Below are positions 42,843 to 63,971 of a stretch of DNA of 64,000 nt, piece after piece. Each line of letters begins with the position of its first letter. Position 1 is the first letter of the stretch. Location: NCBI GenBank assembly GCA_038923045.1, contig JBCKWE010000003.1:5416-69415 (forward strand). Reading direction: 5' to 3'. This DNA comes from Legionellaceae bacterium. Lineage in GTDB: Bacteria > Pseudomonadota > Gammaproteobacteria > Legionellales > Legionellaceae. The notes below the pieces were generated by a model. That model was not told the DNA's origin. It ran no database searches and was given only the letters and a program-made list of their open reading frames with translations. The position numbers were made by a program, and so were the translations under genes.

Positions 42843-43580
42843 TTAATGAAAACTGGTGACCAGCGCTTGAACCACCAAATCAAACCCATCAATCAATACA
42901 AATAGTAAAATTTTAATCGGCAGTGAGATGGTCATGGGAGGCATCATCATCATGCCCATGGTCATTAAAATTCCCGAGACTATCAAATCGACCAGCAAAA
43001 ACGGCAAAAAAATCATGAAGCCGATTTGAAAGGCTGTTTGTAATTCACTGAGCAAAAAGGCTGGGATCAGTTGATAAAATTTAATGTCTTCGGCTTGAGA
43101 GGGTACCGGTTCCTTGGCTAATTGCCAAATCAATTTTAACTCTTTTTCACGCGTTTGTTTCAGCATGAACTGGCGTAAAGGCTCTACGGCTTTTTGCAGT
43201 GCTTCTTCACCATCGATTTGTTTTGCCTGGTAAGGTTCATAGGCCTTATCGTAAATGGTTTGTGCAATCGGCATCATGGTAAAAAGGGTTAGAAACAAAG
43301 CTAAACTGATCATGACCGTATTCGGTGGCGTTTGTTGTAATCCAAGTGCTGATCGTAGCATGGATAGCACGATGATGATGCGTGTGAAGGAGGAGAGCAT
43401 GATCAGAATACCAGGCGCTAGACTCAAAATTGTGAGCAGTGCAAATACTTTCAAGGCAGGTGATATTGTGTCATGATCAAACCGAATCATGCCAAGTAAG
43501 GTATCAGGCTCACCTGCAAAGCTGAGCGTTGGTAATATCAGTAGCAGCAGGGATATCCACAACGTGGATCGATTCATCAC
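42843..43580 (-). CDS. fliP: Flagellar/T3SS export gate protein FliP (SctR family)
   Basis: SSFTRIIIVLSMLRSALGLQQTPPN and FLPFLLVDLIVSGILMTMGMMMMPPMTISLPIKILLFVLIDGF. Confidence 0.9.
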   Translation of the reverse strand: MMNRSTLWISLLLLILPTLSFAGEPDTLLGMIRFDHDTISPALKVFALLTILSLAPGILIMLSSFTRIIIVLSMLRSALGLQQTPPNTVMISLALFLTLFTMMPIAQTIYDKAYEPYQAKQIDGEEALQKAVEPLRQFMLKQTREKELKLIWQLAKEPVPSQAEDIKFYQLIPAFLLSELQTAFQIGFMIFLPFLLVDLIVSGILMTMGMMMMPPMTISLPIKILLFVLIDGFDLVVQALVTSFH

Positions 43581-43879
43581 CCCGTAACCTCAGTAATCTG
43601 AATCGCAAAACAGTCCTCACAGCTCATTAACTCGCCTCGTGCTATCACTTGATTATTCAATACAATATCCACAGGTTCATGTGTTTGTTGATGCAATGAC
43701 AGCTGCGCACCTTGTTTAAGCTGGCGCAGTTCATTGATGGTTAGGGTGAGGGTGCCTATGCGAACCAGGCACTCCACCTCAATGTCTCCCACCAAGTTTA
43801 GATAATTTTCAGAAACAGGGCTGCCATTCGTCGAAGGCTGTTGGTCTAAAAGGGCTATTTTTTTTGCGGTAATGGTCAT
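43577..43879 (-). CDS. fliN: FliN-type SpoA-domain switch protein (100 aa)
   Basis: VECLVRIGTLTLTINELRQLKQGAQLSL....PVDIVLNNQVIARGEL....CFAIQITEV is a SpoA domain. Confidence 0.75.
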   Translation of the reverse strand: MTITAKKIALLDQQPSTNGSPVSENYLNLVGDIEVECLVRIGTLTLTINELRQLKQGAQLSLHQQTHEPVDIVLNNQVIARGELMSCEDCFAIQITEVTG

Positions 43880-44598
43880 GATTTTCTCGATGTTAAAATG
43901 GATTTAGTGGTGTTTAATTTGCCGATATCTACGTTACAGATGGTTTGTTGTTGATGCGTCAACGCCAAGGGGTCTGTAATGGGATGATCGGTTTTGATCA
44001 CATCGCCAACTTGCAGGCGAATGACGTCTGCCAGTTTTAATGGCAATGGGTTTAGCGTAACGTGCAGCTGAAGGCGTTGTGTCGCCAGTGCTTCATGTAA
44101 TGTTACTGGTGATTTTGTTGATCTGTAATTTGATGGTAATGCATCAGAAACCCATTGAGGGTGTAGGTAGATTGTGATGCTTTCATTCGCGCACGTTAAT
44201 GTGAGGGCGCAAGTGGGTGCACCTGTGTAAAACCAGTCTTCAATAACCCATTTTTCAATCGTCTCTTTTAATACTGCTGCACCAAGCAATTGACTCAACA
44301 ATGCCATAAACAACGACTCAGCTACCGCATCAAAGCAATCGGATGTATCGTCAAATAGGCTATATTTAATCAACGATAAACATGATTTATCCAACAAAGC
44401 GATCCCGCTGTTTGCAGCGTTGGTTAGATTATCAAACTTAAGAGATCCTGGTAGTTTCGGGTTTCGACGTAACTGACACGATAATGGAAATAACGCATGC
44501 ACATCATTCCAAGCTTGCAGTTTGCACGCAAACGCTTGCTGTAGATCACGCAGTTCTGTGCAGTTAATCAATCGATACGGTTTGAATTTTGAATTCAT
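43876..44598 (-). CDS. Short FliM/SctQ-like switch protein (240 aa)
   Basis: Position upstream of fliN. C-terminal LPLKLADVIRLQVGDVIKTDHPITDPLALTHQQQTICNVDIG is SpoA-like. No N-terminal CheY-binding LSQxEIDxLL-type peptide is seen. Confidence 0.5.
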   Translation of the reverse strand: MNSKFKPYRLINCTELRDLQQAFACKLQAWNDVHALFPLSCQLRRNPKLPGSLKFDNLTNAANSGIALLDKSCLSLIKYSLFDDTSDCFDAVAESLFMALLSQLLGAAVLKETIEKWVIEDWFYTGAPTCALTLTCANESITIYLHPQWVSDALPSNYRSTKSPVTLHEALATQRLQLHVTLNPLPLKLADVIRLQVGDVIKTDHPITDPLALTHQQQTICNVDIGKLNTTKSILTSRKS

Positions 44599-61798: not shown

Positions 61799-61967
61799 GA
61801 CTTTTCCTCACTTAAAGTTATTTTCGTCGGCTTTAAGCCAGTACCGAGGGTGTCAGCGGAAATATGACAATTTACGCATGTTTTCTAAACCTAGATATTC
61901 ACATAATCCTTGCACATGAAACTCTATTTGTCCAATGTATTTTTTCAAAATTAACGCAGCTGCCCTG

Positions 61968-63971
61968 TTACGTCACCACACTAAAGGATTCAATTTGAAT
62001 ATTGACTGGGATTTCATTCATCCCCAACACCGTCAGGTGTGGAATAACACGCAGGGTCAAATGTTTAATATGGCGGCGTAGTAACGGCGAACACAATAAA
62101 ACCGGTCTTCTCCGTTCACTCAGCATTTTTTCAACTTGATGTGCTAACGACGTAATGAAGCTCTCAGTCAAGCTAGGCGCACACGCAAACTGATTATTGG
62201 TAATACTCGCGCCCAGTTTTTGTTCAAGTGGGGGTGCCAGCGTTAGCACGGACAAGCTATTCTGGTTCAACATTAATTTTTGACATATGGGGGTCGCCAA
62301 GCGCGCACGTACCAGCTCCGTTAATTGCGTGGGATCCGTGAGGGTTTTACTGTGATCCAGCAACGTTTCAAGGATCGTGGATAAAAATCGAATCGATACT
62401 TTTTCTTGCAATAAATTTTGCAGGATACGTTGCACATGTCCAAATGGTAGCAGTGCAGGGATGAGTTCATCCCGCAGTGTACTGATGACGGGTTGTTCCA
62501 AGAGTGTTTCAGTTTGAGTGCGTGTTAACAGTTCTGCCAAGTTGTTTTGTACGATGTCACTTACATGATCGATTAGTACCGCCATGGGTTCTTGAACGGT
62601 GTAGTTGGTTGAAAGCGCCTGACTCGCGGGTATCCATGTGGCGGGCAGACCATAGTTTGGATCTTGAACGTCTATTCCAGTCAACAGTGTTTTGTCAGCT
62701 GGTTTGTGTGCAATCGCCAGTAATTTATCCAAATGCAATTGGTTCGTGCCTTGGTGATTGCCCTGGATATACACGGCATAAAACGGGTAATTGAGTTTTT
62801 TATCCGTGCGCAACTTGACCTCTGGCATCACAAAACCCAGATCAAACGCCAGACGCTCACGCCGTTGCTGGATCTGATTTAAAAAGGGTGTTTCATGTTG
62901 TGTCAGTTCATCAAACAAGGCGGCATTCAGATGAATTTCTATGGGATGGATGCGTATTTTTTCATACAGCGTTTCATCGTTGGATTCATTCAGCGCGGTA
63001 GTTTCTTGTTGTTTGGCGCGAAAGGCATAGATAGCCGCGATGACAAATAGCATTAGAATAATGAATACGGGCACCATGGGAATGCCTTTTAAAAACAGTA
63101 ACCCCAACAGACTAAAGCACACCATCATCAAGCTTTTAGGATAGGCGGCCACTTGGCGCGCGACTTCACTTCCAAGATGCGCATCGGTTGCGGCCCGCGT
63201 TACAATAATGCCTGTCGCCATCGAAATGGTCAGTGCCGGGATTTGAGTGACCAGTCCATCACCAACCGTGAGCAGTGAATAGGTATGAATGGATGCACTT
63301 AAACTCATGCCTTTCTGCGCCATTCCAATGGCAAAACCACCAATGATATCAACCAGAATAATCAAGACACCCGCAATCGCATCGCCTTTAACAAATTTGC
63401 TGGCACCATCCATTGCGCCATAAAAGTTGGCTTCTTTTTCGATTTGTGCACGCCGAAATTTCGCCTCAGACTGTGAAATAATACCCATATTCAAATCAGC
63501 ATCAATGCTCATCTGCTTACCGGGCATGCTATCCAATGTGAAGCGTGCAGCGACTTCCGCAACACGCTGTGCGCCGTTGGTGACCACAACGTATTGCACA
63601 ATAATCAGAATTAAAAAGACCACCAGCCCCATGACATAATTATCATGGATGACGTATTGCCCAATTGCCCCAATCACACGCCCCGCATCGCCATCGGATA
63701 AAATCAGCCGGGTAGCGGATACGTTTAACGCGAGACGAAACAAGGTGGAAATTAACAAAAGGGCGGGGAATGTGGAGAAACTTAAGGGTTTATCGGTATA
63801 AAAAGTCAATAACAGGATGGTTAATGCCCAACTGAAATTGGTAATCAACAGCAAGTCCAGAAAGCCTGATGGAATTGGAATGAATAAAATAAGCAGAATA
63901 CCCGTGGCAAAGGCAATCATGGCTAATTCACTGCTGTTTTTGAAATACTTCATAGCGAAGTTGTTGGGCAT
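61968..63971 (-). CDS. flhA: Flagellar/T3SS export gate protein FlhA (SctV family)
   Basis: FHIPEP-type motifs ARFTLDSMPGKQMSIDADL and ASKFVKGDAIAG, 8 N-terminal TM helices and a large cytoplasmic domain. 667 aa. Confidence 0.9.
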   Translation of the reverse strand: MPNNFAMKYFKNSSELAMIAFATGILLILFIPIPSGFLDLLLITNFSWALTILLLTFYTDKPLSFSTFPALLLISTLFRLALNVSATRLILSDGDAGRVIGAIGQYVIHDNYVMGLVVFLILIIVQYVVVTNGAQRVAEVAARFTLDSMPGKQMSIDADLNMGIISQSEAKFRRAQIEKEANFYGAMDGASKFVKGDAIAGVLIILVDIIGGFAIGMAQKGMSLSASIHTYSLLTVGDGLVTQIPALTISMATGIIVTRAATDAHLGSEVARQVAAYPKSLMMVCFSLLGLLFLKGIPMVPVFIILMLFVIAAIYAFRAKQQETTALNESNDETLYEKIRIHPIEIHLNAALFDELTQHETPFLNQIQQRRERLAFDLGFVMPEVKLRTDKKLNYPFYAVYIQGNHQGTNQLHLDKLLAIAHKPADKTLLTGIDVQDPNYGLPATWIPASQALSTNYTVQEPMAVLIDHVSDIVQNNLAELLTRTQTETLLEQPVISTLRDELIPALLPFGHVQRILQNLLQEKVSIRFLSTILETLLDHSKTLTDPTQLTELVRARLATPICQKLMLNQNSLSVLTLAPPLEQKLGASITNNQFACAPSLTESFITSLAHQVEKMLSERRRPVLLCSPLLRRHIKHLTLRVIPHLTVLGMNEIPVNIQIESFSVVT

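What the first reader, a model, noticed from the sequence alone, without database searches (positions are those of the whole stretch)
42843..63971. Ultra-compact, miniaturised flagellar-type T3SS super-operon with no motor, filament or chemotaxis genes in view
From flgF (56006) to fliP (42843), 19 genes run on one strand with essentially no intergenic DNA. Junctions are 1-, 4-, 8- or 17-nt overlaps and there is a single 1-nt gap. The order flgB-flgC-fliE-fliF-fliG-fliH-fliI-fliJ-fliK-flgD-flgE-fliM-fliN-fliP is collinear with the Bacillus fla/che-type core rather than the enterobacterial or Legionella operon layout, with flgF-G-A-H-I prefixed. Many products are far shorter than the approximate E. 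coli/Salmonella sizes I recall: FliG-position 147 vs ~330 aa, FliM-like 240 vs ~334, FliN 100 vs ~137, FliF 434 vs ~550, FlgD 124 vs ~230, FliK-like 209 vs ~375-400, FlgH 189 vs ~232 (and without a lipobox Cys). No fliL, fliO, flgJ, flgKL, fliC/D/S, motAB, fliQ/R or flhB lie where the collinear order would place them, and fliP is followed by a REP hairpin. Together this suggests a basal-body/hook export machine that may not rotate.
Basis: partly seen in the sequence, partly recalled or inferred. Interest (0 to 1): 0.75.

Follow-up and report, generated by a model that had tools for sequence, protein, structure and literature searches.

The report
Filament-less second flagellar system, Legionella
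This is a compact, intact Legionella gene cluster that encodes a flagellum-like basal body, hook and export apparatus but no recognisable torque-generating rotor, motor or filament parts; this kind of cluster is already noted in Legionella as a "putative second flagellar system", and it probably exports proteins rather than propels the cell.

Summary
Nineteen genes, flgF to fliP (56006-42843, minus strand), are joined by 1-, 4-, 8- or 17-nt overlaps plus one 1-nt gap. A twentieth gene, for a cytoplasmic TPR protein, also belongs to the cluster.

The cluster is not new as a kind. It matches the Legionella "putative second, partial flagellar system" (PFS2; Gomez-Valero 2014; Appelt & Heuner 2017). 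I also find the same architecture in about 30 non-Legionella gammaproteobacterial loci, including Lysobacter. In Lysobacter enzymogenes, a gene set with a similar inventory has been shown to secrete proteins without a filament.

The short genes are not artefacts. A relative with about 93-94% nucleotide identity in the segments compared has the same gene lengths, and dN/dS is 0.06-0.40. The protein at the FliG position belongs to its own 115-160 aa family and is not recognisably FliG. The FliM-like protein keeps only the C-terminal SpoA domain. FlgH lacks a lipobox across the whole family.

The "missing" flhB is a window-edge effect: an intact FlhB lies on a contig of the same length as the window's, outside the window. 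fliQ and fliR probably lie beside it.

One new detail is a fast-evolving family of helical proteins (p581, p791). One to three copies sit just upstream of flgF in this subclade.

The most likely function is a non-rotating hook-basal-body export machine. Interest is moderate.

The parts
61968..63971 (-). flhA, export-gate protein (667 aa). The window ends 29 nt upstream of its start codon.
   Evidence: Pfam FHIPEP E=1.7e-216. The full length matches flagellar FlhA in the PDB at 413 bits; SctV matches only over the N-terminal part. Orthologues of 66-80% identity lie in Legionella loci directly upstream of flgF.
60542..61798 (-). p418, an inserted gene of unknown family in low-GC DNA. Probably not part of the machine.
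   Evidence: No Pfam, NCBIfam or PDB hit. Absent from relatives L081/L082, L083 and L001-L008. GC is 0.36-0.39 here against about 0.45 in the cluster.
57977..60352 (-). p791, a member of a fast-evolving all-helical paralogue family with an (SE)n repeat. Candidate secreted substrate or effector.
   Evidence: It is paralogous to p581 and homologous to L082 p739 and to L083 p619, p620 and p637. dN/dS against p739 is about 1.0. No known family.
56152..57897 (-). p581, second copy of the same paralogue family.
   Evidence: BLASTP against p791: 37% identity over the N-terminal 300 aa and 42% over the C-terminal 140 aa. The AlphaFold2 model is all-helical but low confidence, pLDDT 47.6.
56061..56131 (-). 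Promoter-like region upstream of flgF (TTGCAA-N17-TTTAAT).
   Evidence: Read from the sequence. A 91-nt stretch, about 56020-56110 and extending about 40 nt below this feature, is 78% identical to the DNA upstream of fliQ in relative L082. The generic promoter scan was uninformative.
55290..56006 (-). flgF, proximal rod (238 aa from the ATG at 56006).
   Evidence: Pfam LlgE_F_G_D1 and Flg_bbr_C. Start chosen by ribosome-binding-site context, close to the relative's 237-aa call.
54521..55297 (-). flgG, distal rod (258 aa).
   Evidence: Pfam LlgE_F_G_D1 E=2e-20 and Flg_bbr_C. Start choice.
53632..54537 (-). flgA, P-ring chaperone.
   Evidence: Pfam ChapFlgA E=4.5e-18.
53066..53635 (-). flgH, L-ring protein (189 aa) with a signal peptide and no lipobox cysteine.
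   Evidence: Pfam FlgH E=4.9e-43. The family's N-termini nearly all carry an AxA-type cleavage site with no Cys at the cleavage site.
51966..53069 (-). flgI, P-ring protein.
   Evidence: Pfam FlgI E=3.6e-119.
51643..51969 (-). flgB, rod.
   Evidence: Weak Pfam Flg_bb_rod hit. Orthologues of about 60% identity at the same position in Legionella loci.
51224..51646 (-). flgC, rod.
   Evidence: Pfam Flg_bbr_C E=7e-12.
50922..51227 (-). fliE.
   Evidence: Pfam FliE E=3.4e-21.
49616..50920 (-). fliF, MS-ring protein (434 aa).
   Evidence: Pfam YscJ_FliF E=3e-54 and YscJ_FliF_C E=7e-13.
49180..49623 (-). p147, a short all-helical protein at the FliG position. Possibly an adaptor between FliF and the FliM-like/FliN proteins. 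It is too short to hold FliG's N-terminal, middle and torque (C-terminal) domains together.
   Evidence: No Pfam, NCBIfam or PDB sequence hit. It has its own family of 97 cluster representatives; the 73 that match over most of the profile are 115-161 aa (one is 190), and none is FliG-length. AlphaFold2 model pLDDT 73.5 with nine helices. Only weak, non-significant Foldseek hits to FliG. hhalign E=0.1-0.3.
48546..49196 (-). fliH.
   Evidence: Pfam FliH E=7e-16.
47261..48553 (-). fliI, export ATPase.
   Evidence: Pfam ATP-synt_ab and T3SS_ATPase_C. Best PDB match is Salmonella FliI at 357 bits.
46860..47264 (-). p134, at the FliJ position.
   Evidence: Position only; no family hit. Conserved at 31-37% identity in Legionella loci.
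46234..46863 (-). p209, at the FliK position.
   Evidence: Position only; no family hit. The fastest-evolving core gene, dN/dS 0.40.
45863..46237 (-). flgD, hook cap (124 aa, N-terminal domain type).
   Evidence: Pfam FlgD E=2e-16. NCBIfam short-FlgD model PRK09618 E=4.5e-21.
44595..45863 (-). flgE, hook protein (422 aa).
   Evidence: Pfam LlgE_F_G_D1, FlgE_D2, Flg_bbr_C and Flg_bb_rod.
43876..44598 (-). FliM-like protein (240 aa) with only the C-terminal SpoA/FliMN_C domain. No CheY-binding N-terminus and no detectable FliM middle domain.
   Evidence: Pfam FliMN_C at residues 175-230 only. TIGR01397 fliM aligns only its positions 243-313. PDB: weak FliY hit only.
43577..43879 (-). fliN (100 aa).
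   Evidence: Pfam FliMN_C E=3e-18.
42843..43580 (-). fliP, export-gate protein.
   Evidence: Pfam FliP E=1.7e-78.
42747..42833 (-). Perfect 37-bp hairpin between fliP and the TPR gene.
   Evidence: Sequence. Fold -81.2 kcal/mol, z=-16. Unique in the window. Absent in relative L081, where the fliP-TPR gap is 9 nt.
41889..42734 (-). Cytoplasmic TPR protein (281 aa), a conserved twentieth gene of the cluster. Candidate export chaperone.
   Evidence: Pfam TPR families. Weak LcrH/SycD (E=2.6e-5) and SctY hits, all below cutoff. It directly follows fliP in L081. In 22 of the 33 non-Legionella loci with the architecture, a homologue (23-31% identity) lies about 2.1-2.4 kb upstream of flhA on the same strand.

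Best explanation
The locus matches, in gene content and species distribution, the Legionella 'putative second flagellar system' (PFS2). It is a vertically conserved, flagellum-derived cluster that builds these parts:
- an MS ring (FliF);
- an export gate (FlhA and FliP here; FlhB, and probably FliQ and FliR, just outside the window);
- an ATPase complex (FliH, FliI and a FliJ-position protein);
- a reduced cytoplasmic platform (the FliM-like SpoA protein, FliN and the 147-aa protein at the FliG position);
- a rod (FliE, FlgB, FlgC, FlgF, FlgG);
- P and L rings (FlgA, FlgI and a non-lipidated FlgH);
- a hook (FlgD, FlgE and a FliK-position protein).

The cluster encodes no recognisable FliG torque domain, no CheY-binding FliM, no stators, no hook-filament junction, no filament and no cap. 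The most likely product is therefore a non-rotating hook-basal body that works as a type III protein-export conduit across both membranes.

FlgF to the TPR gene is probably one translationally coupled transcript. The conserved cytoplasmic TPR protein is a candidate export chaperone. In this subclade, the hypervariable helical proteins encoded just upstream of flgF (p581, p791) are candidate substrates.

Shown: gene identities, architecture, conservation, purifying selection, and clade membership of FlhA. Inferred: assembly of the structure, absence of rotation, secretion, and the roles of the TPR protein and p581/p791.
For: -
- The same architecture occurs in nine Legionellaceae loci (L001-L008, L081) and in about 33 other loci, nearly all gammaproteobacterial: Kangiella, Microbulbifer, Dyella, Rhodanobacter, Lysobacter, Stenotrophomonas, Pseudoxanthomonas, Hahella and others.
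- In a neighbour-joining tree, the FlhA proteins of these loci form one clade apart from canonical flagellar FlhA, including canonical gammaproteobacterial ones. Identity is 43-52% within the family against 36-41% to canonical FlhA.
- FlhA orthologues of 70-72% identity come from L. quateirensis and L. worsleiensis. Appelt & Heuner list both species as carrying the PFS2 operon (PMC5655016). Gomez-Valero 2014 describes the extra flagellar region in L. micdadei and L. fallonii (PMC4256840).
- A relative with about 93-94% nucleotide identity in the aligned flhA and flgF-region segments has identical gene lengths, and dN/dS is 0.06-0.40 for all 21 machine genes.
- The FliG-position protein is short across the family, 109-165 aa in the clearest loci. 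It forms its own family with no FliG-length member.
- The FliM-like protein has only the SpoA domain.
- FlhB on a contig of the same length as the window's is intact and keeps the NPTH autocleavage motif.
- L. israelensis lacks the regular flagellar regulon yet keeps this operon (PMC5655016).
- In non-flagellated Lysobacter enzymogenes OH11, a gene set with a similar inventory exports FlgD and antifungal proteins in a FliI- and FlhB-dependent way (PMC7688988). Lysobacter genomes lack fliC, fliD, flgKL, fliG, fliM and motAB (PMC9927559).
Against: - No experiment exists for any Legionella system of this type.
- I could not inspect the rest of this genome. FliG, MotAB, FlgKL, FliC and FliD from a regular flagellar regulon could in principle complement the cluster.
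- p147 shows weak, non-significant structural resemblance to FliG domains: 5 of the 12 Foldseek hits are FliG chains and one is the FliF-C:FliG-N complex, all with E>1. One homologue hits Pfam FliG_N at E=0.0046. A minimal rotor adaptor is therefore not excluded.
- L and P rings act as a bushing for a rotating rod in flagella. Keeping them is not obviously needed for a static conduit.
- I did not verify that strain OH11's own cluster belongs to this family; I saw only other Lysobacter loci (L020, L023).
- Nothing links the TPR protein or p581/p791 to export except position and evolutionary rate.
Confidence: 0.6

Rival explanations
1. It is a genuine second flagellum. The missing parts (full-length FliG, MotAB, FlgK/L, FliD, flagellin, FlgJ) are supplied by the regular Legionella flagellar regulon or by unlinked genes, and the organelle rotates.
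For: L. micdadei and L. fallonii carry both the regular operons and this region (PMC4256840). The rod, L/P rings and hook, which are parts typical of a rotating axial structure, are kept and under purifying selection. flhB, and probably fliQ and fliR, do lie outside the window, so other parts could too.
Against: L. israelensis keeps the operon while lacking most of the regular regulon and flaA (PMC5655016). The family occurs in taxa described as non-flagellated or non-motile (Lysobacter: PMC7688988, PMC9927559; Kangiella: from my own knowledge of the genus descriptions). A dedicated short protein always occupies the FliG slot, and no FliG-length homologue exists in its family. The FliM-like protein lacks the CheY-binding and middle domains. 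Proteins of the two systems share only about 40% identity (FlhA), which makes mixed assemblies less likely.
Confidence: 0.13
2. It is a decaying, non-functional remnant of a lost flagellar system.
For: Many canonical genes are absent. Gene order around the export-gate genes differs among close relatives (window; L082; L083), with foreign low-GC genes inserted. L. maceachernii shows no flgA at its expected position.
Against: All 20 cluster genes plus flhA are intact in the window. Gene lengths are identical in a relative with synonymous divergence dS of about 0.16-0.52, while dN/dS is 0.06-0.40. The translationally coupled 1-17-nt overlaps are preserved. The same gene set is conserved across Legionella and distant gammaproteobacteria. 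The Lysobacter proteins are expressed and the system exports FlgD (PMC7688988).
Confidence: 0.07
3. It assembles, but its main role is not secretion of effectors. It could be an envelope-spanning structural or signalling device, for example one that influences type IV pilus twitching or surface sensing, or it could display a hook as an adhesin.
For: [quoted passage not shown] No bona fide substrate is known in Legionella. The hook and L/P rings are conserved, and the hook would be surface-exposed.
Against: The export ATPase complex, FlhB with the NPTH switch motif and a FliK-position protein are all kept. That points to regulated export of more than one substrate class. Secretion of non-flagellar proteins through the Lysobacter system is reported (PMC7688988).
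Confidence: 0.15

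Closest known systems
Legionella 'putative second (partial) flagellar system', PFS2: the fourth flagellar region of L. 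micdadei and L. fallonii (Gomez-Valero et al. 2014, PMC4256840; Appelt & Heuner 2017, PMC5655016)
   Same: The gene content is as described in those papers: basal body, secretion system and hook, with no flaA or fliD. FlhA orthologues of 70-72% identity come from species listed as PFS2-positive, L. quateirensis and L. worsleiensis. Architecture is collinear in L. moravica and L. maceachernii.
   Different: This copy is from an unnamed Legionellaceae lineage. Its nearest assemblies are GCA_038923015.1 and GCA_038922955.1. It carries a three-gene low-GC insertion between flhA and flgF, including two copies of a hypervariable helical protein family, and a 37-bp hairpin before the TPR gene. The published descriptions I could read stop at annotation level. 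I did not find the short FliG-slot protein, the truncated FliM, the non-lipidated FlgH or the TPR gene mentioned.
FT3SS-like system of non-flagellated Lysobacter enzymogenes OH11 (Fulano et al. 2020, PMC7688988; PMC9927559)
   Same: The inventory is similar. FlgC, E, G, H, I, FliF, FliN, FlgD, FlhA, FlhB, FliPQR and FliI are present. FliC, FliD, FlgKL, FliG, FliM and MotAB are absent. Other Lysobacter genomes (L020, L023) carry the same flhA-flgF-flgG-...-fliF-X-fliH-fliI architecture, with FlhA in the same clade. This is the only related system with experimental evidence: it exports FlgD and antifungal proteins.
   Different: Identity is only about 47% for FlhA and 22-36% for many other proteins. 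The Lysobacter authors interpret their genes as leftovers of flagellar loss. Here the family also occurs in genera that are normally flagellated (Legionella species with regular operons; Stenotrophomonas maltophilia STE2). I did not examine OH11's own locus.
Buchnera aphidicola hook-basal bodies (Maezawa et al. 2006; cited in PMC13063649, otherwise my own knowledge)
   Same: Flagellar basal body and hook are kept without flagellin or motor genes, and a protein-export role has been proposed.
   Different: Buchnera's set is a reductive remnant of the enterobacterial primary flagellum with canonical proteins. The present family is a divergent, separately evolving lineage with its own FliG-slot and TPR proteins.
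Non-flagellar T3SS (injectisome)
   Same: The core is homologous (SctV/FlhA, SctN/FliI, SctL/FliH, SctR/FliP, SctJ/FliF, SctQ/FliN). The cytoplasmic platform lacks FliG, like an injectisome sorting platform, and a TPR protein is associated, as with injectisome chaperones.
   Different: There is no secretin, SctD, needle, tip or translocon. Instead the cluster has a flagellar rod, L/P rings and a hook. The FlhA C-terminal domain matches flagellar FlhA, not SctV.

Membership tests
Bacterial flagellum (rotary motility organelle) | Type III export gate: FlhA, FlhB, FliP, FliQ, FliR | tested here: inconclusive
   FlhA and FliP are in the window. FliQ, FliR and FlhB are not in the window. An FlhB about 93% identical to the relative's lies on a contig of 71,937 bp, the same length as the contig holding the window's FlhA and p147. 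Relatives have fliQ-fliR-flhB adjacent. FliQ and FliR of this genome were not seen directly.
Bacterial flagellum (rotary motility organelle) | MS ring, rod, L/P rings and hook (FliF, FliE, FlgB/C/F/G, FlgH/I/A, FlgD/E) | tested here: met
   Pfam hits for every one of these proteins.
Bacterial flagellum (rotary motility organelle) | Rotor/switch: FliG with a C-terminal torque domain, plus FliM with a CheY-binding N-terminus and a middle domain | tested here: not met
   The FliG slot holds a 147-aa protein with no significant match to FliG by HMM, profile-profile or fold comparison. The FliM-like protein matches only the SpoA domain. This was tested for this locus only, not the whole genome.
Bacterial flagellum (rotary motility organelle) | Stator (MotAB/PomAB), hook-filament junction (FlgK/L), filament (flagellin), cap (FliD) | tested here: not met
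   None in the cluster, and none among the 17 other window ORFs scanned against Pfam. The rest of the genome cannot be tested with these tools.
Legionella PFS2 (putative second or partial flagellar system) | One Legionella operon-like region encoding basal body, export apparatus and hook without flaA or fliD, distinct from the three regular flagellar regions | tested here: met
   Gene content. Orthologues in L. quateirensis and L. worsleiensis (named as PFS2-positive in PMC5655016), L. maceachernii and L. moravica.
Gammaproteobacterial flhA-flgFG(A)HI-BC-fliEF-X-HI... cluster family (includes the Lysobacter FT3SS-like system) | Conserved gene order, a short non-FliG protein between fliF and fliH, an associated cytoplasmic TPR protein, a non-lipoprotein FlgH, and a monophyletic FlhA | tested here: met
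   Synteny table. Short X proteins. TPR homologues. FlgH N-termini. FlhA tree (neighbour-joining, no bootstrap). The downstream half (fliJ to fliP) could be checked only in Legionellaceae loci (L081 fully, L007 as far as flgE) and partly in L030.
Non-flagellar T3SS (injectisome) | Secretin SctC, SctD ring, needle SctF, and an SctV-type gate | tested here: not met
   No such Pfam families in the cluster. L/P-ring, rod and hook genes are present instead. The FlhA C-terminal domain aligns with flagellar FlhA only.

The most novel reading that the evidence does not exclude
This cluster family may be a second, independent evolutionary route from the flagellum to a dedicated non-rotating protein-export or contact device. 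Unlike the injectisome, it would keep the rod, L/P rings and hook, replace FliG with a 110-160-aa adaptor, and recruit a cytoplasmic TPR chaperone. In Legionella, which is thought to rely on type II and type IV secretion and to have no virulence T3SS, it would deliver its own substrates. In this subclade those would be the rapidly diversifying helical proteins that duplicate right upstream of flgF (p581, p791 and their homologues).
Probability: 0.2. Interest if true: 0.8.

Novelty: new member of a known kind. Interest (0 to 1): 0.45.

Why it matters
Legionella pathogenesis research centres on the Dot/Icm type IV system, and surveys report no non-flagellar T3SS in the genus (PMC5348487). A conserved, selected, filament-less flagellar-type export machine, present in some species that lack flagella, could be an overlooked secretion or surface organelle.

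The family-level view assembled here gives concrete hypotheses that can be tested in tractable hosts such as Lysobacter, L. micdadei and L. israelensis:
- the same architecture and FlhA clade in Legionella, Lysobacter, Stenotrophomonas, Kangiella and others;
- a FliG-slot mini-protein;
- a truncated FliM;
- a non-lipidated FlgH;
- a conserved TPR protein.

It also recasts the Lysobacter "leftover flagellar genes" as members of a distinct, widespread lineage rather than simple remnants. The specific locus in this window is an ordinary member of that kind.

Tried and rejected
- **Exact look-ups of the window's own proteins.** FlhA, p147 and P0260 returned nothing. The window's own contig appears to be hidden from that tool, so the DNA beyond position 64000 could not be read. 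The location of flhB rests on contig-length identity.
- **Linking p147 to FliG.** None of these gave significant evidence: a PDB profile search; Pfam scans of 24 and 87 members; hhalign against an alphaproteobacterial FliG alignment; a profile search of 1.84 billion representatives; and AlphaFold2 plus Foldseek. I therefore rejected calling it "FliG".
- **p581/p791.** Pfam, NCBIfam, a PDB profile search, and AlphaFold2 (pLDDT 47.6) with Foldseek gave nothing usable.
- **p418.** My impression on reading it that it is HPPD-like was not supported by any search.
- **Promoters.** The generic promoter/terminator scan was no better than shuffled sequence. I looked by eye for sigma-54 spacing upstream of flgF and found it off by one, so I make no sigma-54 claim.
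- **REP status of the hairpin.** It occurs once in the window.
- **Injectisome reading.** Rejected: no secretin, SctD or needle, and FlhA is flagellar-type.
- **Assembly or frameshift artefact.** Rejected: a relative has the same gene lengths and dN/dS is low.
- **Literature.** Searches for later work on PFS2, or for a description of the wider family, found nothing beyond the papers cited.

Full report
**Observation**

ORF listing and HMM scans place these genes on the minus strand: flgF, flgG, flgA, flgH, flgI, flgB, flgC, fliE, fliF, a 147-aa ORF, fliH, fliI, a 134-aa ORF, a 209-aa ORF, flgD, flgE, a 240-aa FliM-like ORF, fliN and fliP. I chose start codons by ribosome-binding-site context; for flgF and flgG they agree with the lengths called in a close relative. 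With those starts, the 18 junctions are overlaps of 1, 4, 8 or 17 nt plus one 1-nt gap. Such packing points to translational coupling.

The quoted protein sizes are correct. FlgH has a signal peptide but no cysteine. No motor, filament, junction, cap, chemotaxis, fliL, fliO or flgJ gene lies in the cluster. None appeared among the 17 other window ORFs I scanned against Pfam; those are housekeeping genes, an IS21 element and toxin-domain proteins. The labels FliJ, FliK and FliG rest on position only, because none of those three ORFs hits any family.

**Two additions to the anatomy**

First, the cluster has a twentieth gene. A 281-aa TPR protein with no signal peptide (41889-42734) follows fliP. 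In the window a perfect 37-bp hairpin separates the two genes (-81 kcal/mol). The hairpin occurs only once in the window. In the closest relative with context, the TPR gene follows fliP after 9 nt.

Second, three genes in lower-GC DNA sit between flhA and flgF. They are p418, p791 and p581, and none belongs to a known family.

**Organism and relatives**

FlhA is 80% identical to that of a Legionellaceae metagenome-assembled genome and 70% identical to those of L. moravica and L. maceachernii. Named orthologues also include L. quateirensis, L. worsleiensis, L. massiliensis, L. fairfieldensis and L. rowbothamii.

Assembly GCA_038923015.1 (L081/L082) is about 93-94% identical in nucleotides over the aligned flhA and flgF-region segments. 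It carries the same 20 genes with the same lengths. Nei-Gojobori dN/dS between the two is 0.06-0.40 for every machine gene. The short ORFs are therefore neither frameshift artefacts nor decaying genes.

**The 'missing' fliQ, fliR and flhB**

tblastn finds none of them in the 64-kb window. All relatives have fliQ-fliR-flhB next to the cluster:
- in L001-L008 they lie directly upstream of flhA;
- in L082 the order is flhA, p1020, fliQ, fliR, flhB, p739, flgF;
- in L083 the order is flhB, three paralogues, flgF.

The 90%-identity cluster of FlhB proteins holds three NCBI members, on contigs of 8,714, 56,028 and 71,937 bp. The last value is the length of the contig that carries the window's own FlhA and p147. 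So an FlhB of this genome very probably lies in the roughly 7.9 kb of that contig outside the window, most likely just upstream of flhA. That FlhB is intact and keeps the NPTH autocleavage motif. I infer this from contig length; I did not read it from sequence.

**What kind of system it is**

It is flagellar-type, not an injectisome. Rod, L/P-ring and hook proteins are present, and no secretin, SctD or needle is. FlhA aligns over its full length with flagellar FlhA structures (413 bits), whereas SctV proteins match only the N-terminal part. FliI is closest to Salmonella FliI.

It is nevertheless a divergent lineage. tblastn synteny over 81 loci shows one recurring order: (TPR, fliQ, fliR, flhB), flhA, flgF, flgG, (flgA), flgH, flgI, flgB, flgC, fliE, fliF, a short ORF, fliH, fliI. 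This order occurs in Legionellaceae loci and in about 33 others, nearly all gammaproteobacterial: Kangiella, Microbulbifer, Dyella, Rhodanobacter, Lysobacter, Stenotrophomonas (including a complete S. maltophilia genome), Pseudoxanthomonas, Hahella, Rheinheimera, Psychrosphaera, Pseudoalteromonas and Grimontia.

In a neighbour-joining tree, the FlhA proteins of these loci form one clade. It is separate from canonical flagellar FlhA, including canonical gammaproteobacterial ones, and Legionella is nested inside it (no bootstrap and no injectisome outgroup). Family-wide traits:
- a 109-165-aa protein in the FliG slot;
- FlgH with a signal-peptidase-I-type signal and no lipobox;
- a homologous TPR protein (23-31% identity).

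**The FliG-slot protein**

p147 has no Pfam, NCBIfam or PDB sequence match. A profile search of 1.84 billion representatives returned 97 proteins. The 73 that match over most of the profile are 115-161 aa (one is 190 aa), and none is FliG-length. The AlphaFold2 model is all-helical with two bundles (pLDDT 73.5).

Foldseek gives only non-significant hits (E>1). Five of the 12 are FliG chains and one is the FliF-C:FliG-N complex, whose FliG N-domain chain matches with target-normalised TM-score 0.60. One homologue touches Pfam FliG_N at E=0.0046. None of 87 does in a wider set, and hhalign against FliG gives E=0.1-0.3.

I therefore do not call it FliG. At most it is a remote two-bundle relative. 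It is too short to contain FliG's N-terminal, middle and C-terminal torque domains together. The FliM-like protein matches FliM and FliN models only over the C-terminal SpoA domain. Its N-terminus has no CheY-binding motif, as read from the sequence.

**Literature**

This kind of cluster is already on record. Gomez-Valero et al. [quoted passage not shown] They describe it as encoding basal body, secretion system and hook, without flaA or fliD. [quoted passage not shown] They leave open whether it is a T3SS or a second flagellum (PMC5655016).

For Lysobacter enzymogenes OH11, an 'FT3SS-like system' with a similar inventory is expressed. It exports FlgD and antifungal proteins in a FliI/FlhB-dependent way and is needed for twitching motility (PMC7688988; PMC9927559). 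I found no paper that connects the Legionella and Lysobacter systems or describes the wider family. The library searched is not exhaustive.

**Most likely mechanism**

The cluster probably builds a non-rotating hook-basal body that acts as a type III export conduit.

Shown:
- a complete, selected gene set for the gate (partly inferred), ATPase complex, MS ring, rod, L/P rings and hook;
- no recognisable rotor torque domain, switch input, stator, junction, filament or cap at the locus;
- occurrence in taxa described as non-flagellated.

Inferred:
- p147 bridges the short FliF tail to the FliM-like/FliN platform;
- the retained FlhB NPTH motif and the FliK-position protein imply a substrate switch, and hence 'late' non-flagellar substrates;
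- the TPR protein acts as a chaperone (weak LcrH/SycD and SctY similarity, below cutoffs).

A stretch upstream of flgF containing TTGCAA-N17-TTTAAT is 78% identical to the DNA upstream of fliQ in the relative. This suggests a shared promoter.

**The p581/p791 family**

These proteins share a conserved N-terminal region of about 200 aa and a C-terminal region of about 150 aa around a variable, repeat-containing middle. They occur as one copy (L082 p739), two copies (the window) or three copies (L083), always immediately upstream of flgF on the same strand. They are found only in this subclade. dN/dS for p791 against p739 is about 1.0; caution is needed because orthology among paralogues is uncertain. 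They are plausible substrates, or unrelated Legionella effectors lodged in a recombination-prone spot. Structure prediction failed.

**Rivals**

- A true second flagellum completed by unlinked genes (confidence about 0.13). Against it: L. israelensis, the non-flagellated carriers, and the dedicated FliG-slot protein.
- A decaying remnant (about 0.07). Against it: purifying selection and conserved gene overlaps.
- A structural or signalling device rather than a secretion system (about 0.15). It is consistent with the Lysobacter twitching phenotype.

**Verdict**

The kind is already known, and this locus is a new member of it. Interest is moderate. The open functional question is real and testable, and the family-level features assembled here may be useful. 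The locus itself is not a surprise to Legionella genomicists.

Noticed in passing
window 6037-8397 and 8613-12047 (+), with 606-4370 (+) upstream: Two large tandem proteins (786 and 1144 aa) each carry an N-terminal Bacillus_HBL (ClyA-like pore-forming enterotoxin) domain, E=4e-20 and 1e-28. A 1254-aa protein with no Pfam hit precedes them. They could be a toxin or effector set.
   Followed up: no
window 56152-61798 (-): A low-GC (0.36-0.39) three-gene insertion lies between flhA and flgF: p418 (no family) plus two paralogues, p791 and p581. The content of this slot differs in each of three close relatives: one, two or three paralogues. In L082 the order is flhA, p1020, fliQ, fliR, flhB, p739.
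   Followed up: partly
L082 10274-13336: In relative GCA_038923015.1, a 1020-aa protein with a hydrophobic, apparently multi-transmembrane C-terminal region (faint DUF4116 hit) sits between flhA and fliQ. It has no counterpart in the window.
   Followed up: no
window 42747-42833: A perfect 37-bp inverted repeat with a 13-nt loop (-81 kcal/mol) is inserted between fliP and the TPR gene. It is absent in the relative and occurs once in the window. Whether it is a genome-wide repeat element, or acts as a terminator or attenuator, is unknown.
   Followed up: partly
window about 56020-56110; L082 13583-13673: About 90 nt upstream of flgF is 78% identical to the DNA upstream of fliQ in the relative. 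The shared stretch includes TTGCAA-N17-TT(T/A)AAT and a downstream TGGAAAATAT..TCGCGTG motif. This suggests a shared promoter or operator for the two transcription units.
   Followed up: partly
window 24176-26466 (+); 37494-38408 (-); 38629-38716 (-): An IS21-type element (IstA-like transposase plus IstB), a PD-(D/E)XK-family transposase and a tRNA-Ser(TGA) lie nearby. These are mobile-element and integration-site features a few kilobases from the cluster.
   Followed up: no
window 16594-22621 (+): A fatty-acid or polyketide-like gene set: a short-chain dehydrogenase/enoyl-ACP-reductase-family (FabG-like) protein, a FabA-like dehydratase, two ketosynthase-like proteins and a lipid-A-type acyltransferase. 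Its function was not examined.
   Followed up: no
L007 (L. maceachernii) 13480-14069: No flgA homologue is detected between flgG and flgH in the L. maceachernii copy of the cluster, unlike the other Legionella loci compared that extend that far.
   Followed up: no
L011 (Kangiella sp. HZ709), L010/L014 (Microbulbifer), L028 (S. maltophilia STE2): The same cluster architecture occurs in genera usually described as non-motile. A recent survey reported Kangiellales as lacking flagellar genes (PMC13063649). It also occurs in a complete genome of Stenotrophomonas maltophilia, a species that is normally flagellated.
   Followed up: partly
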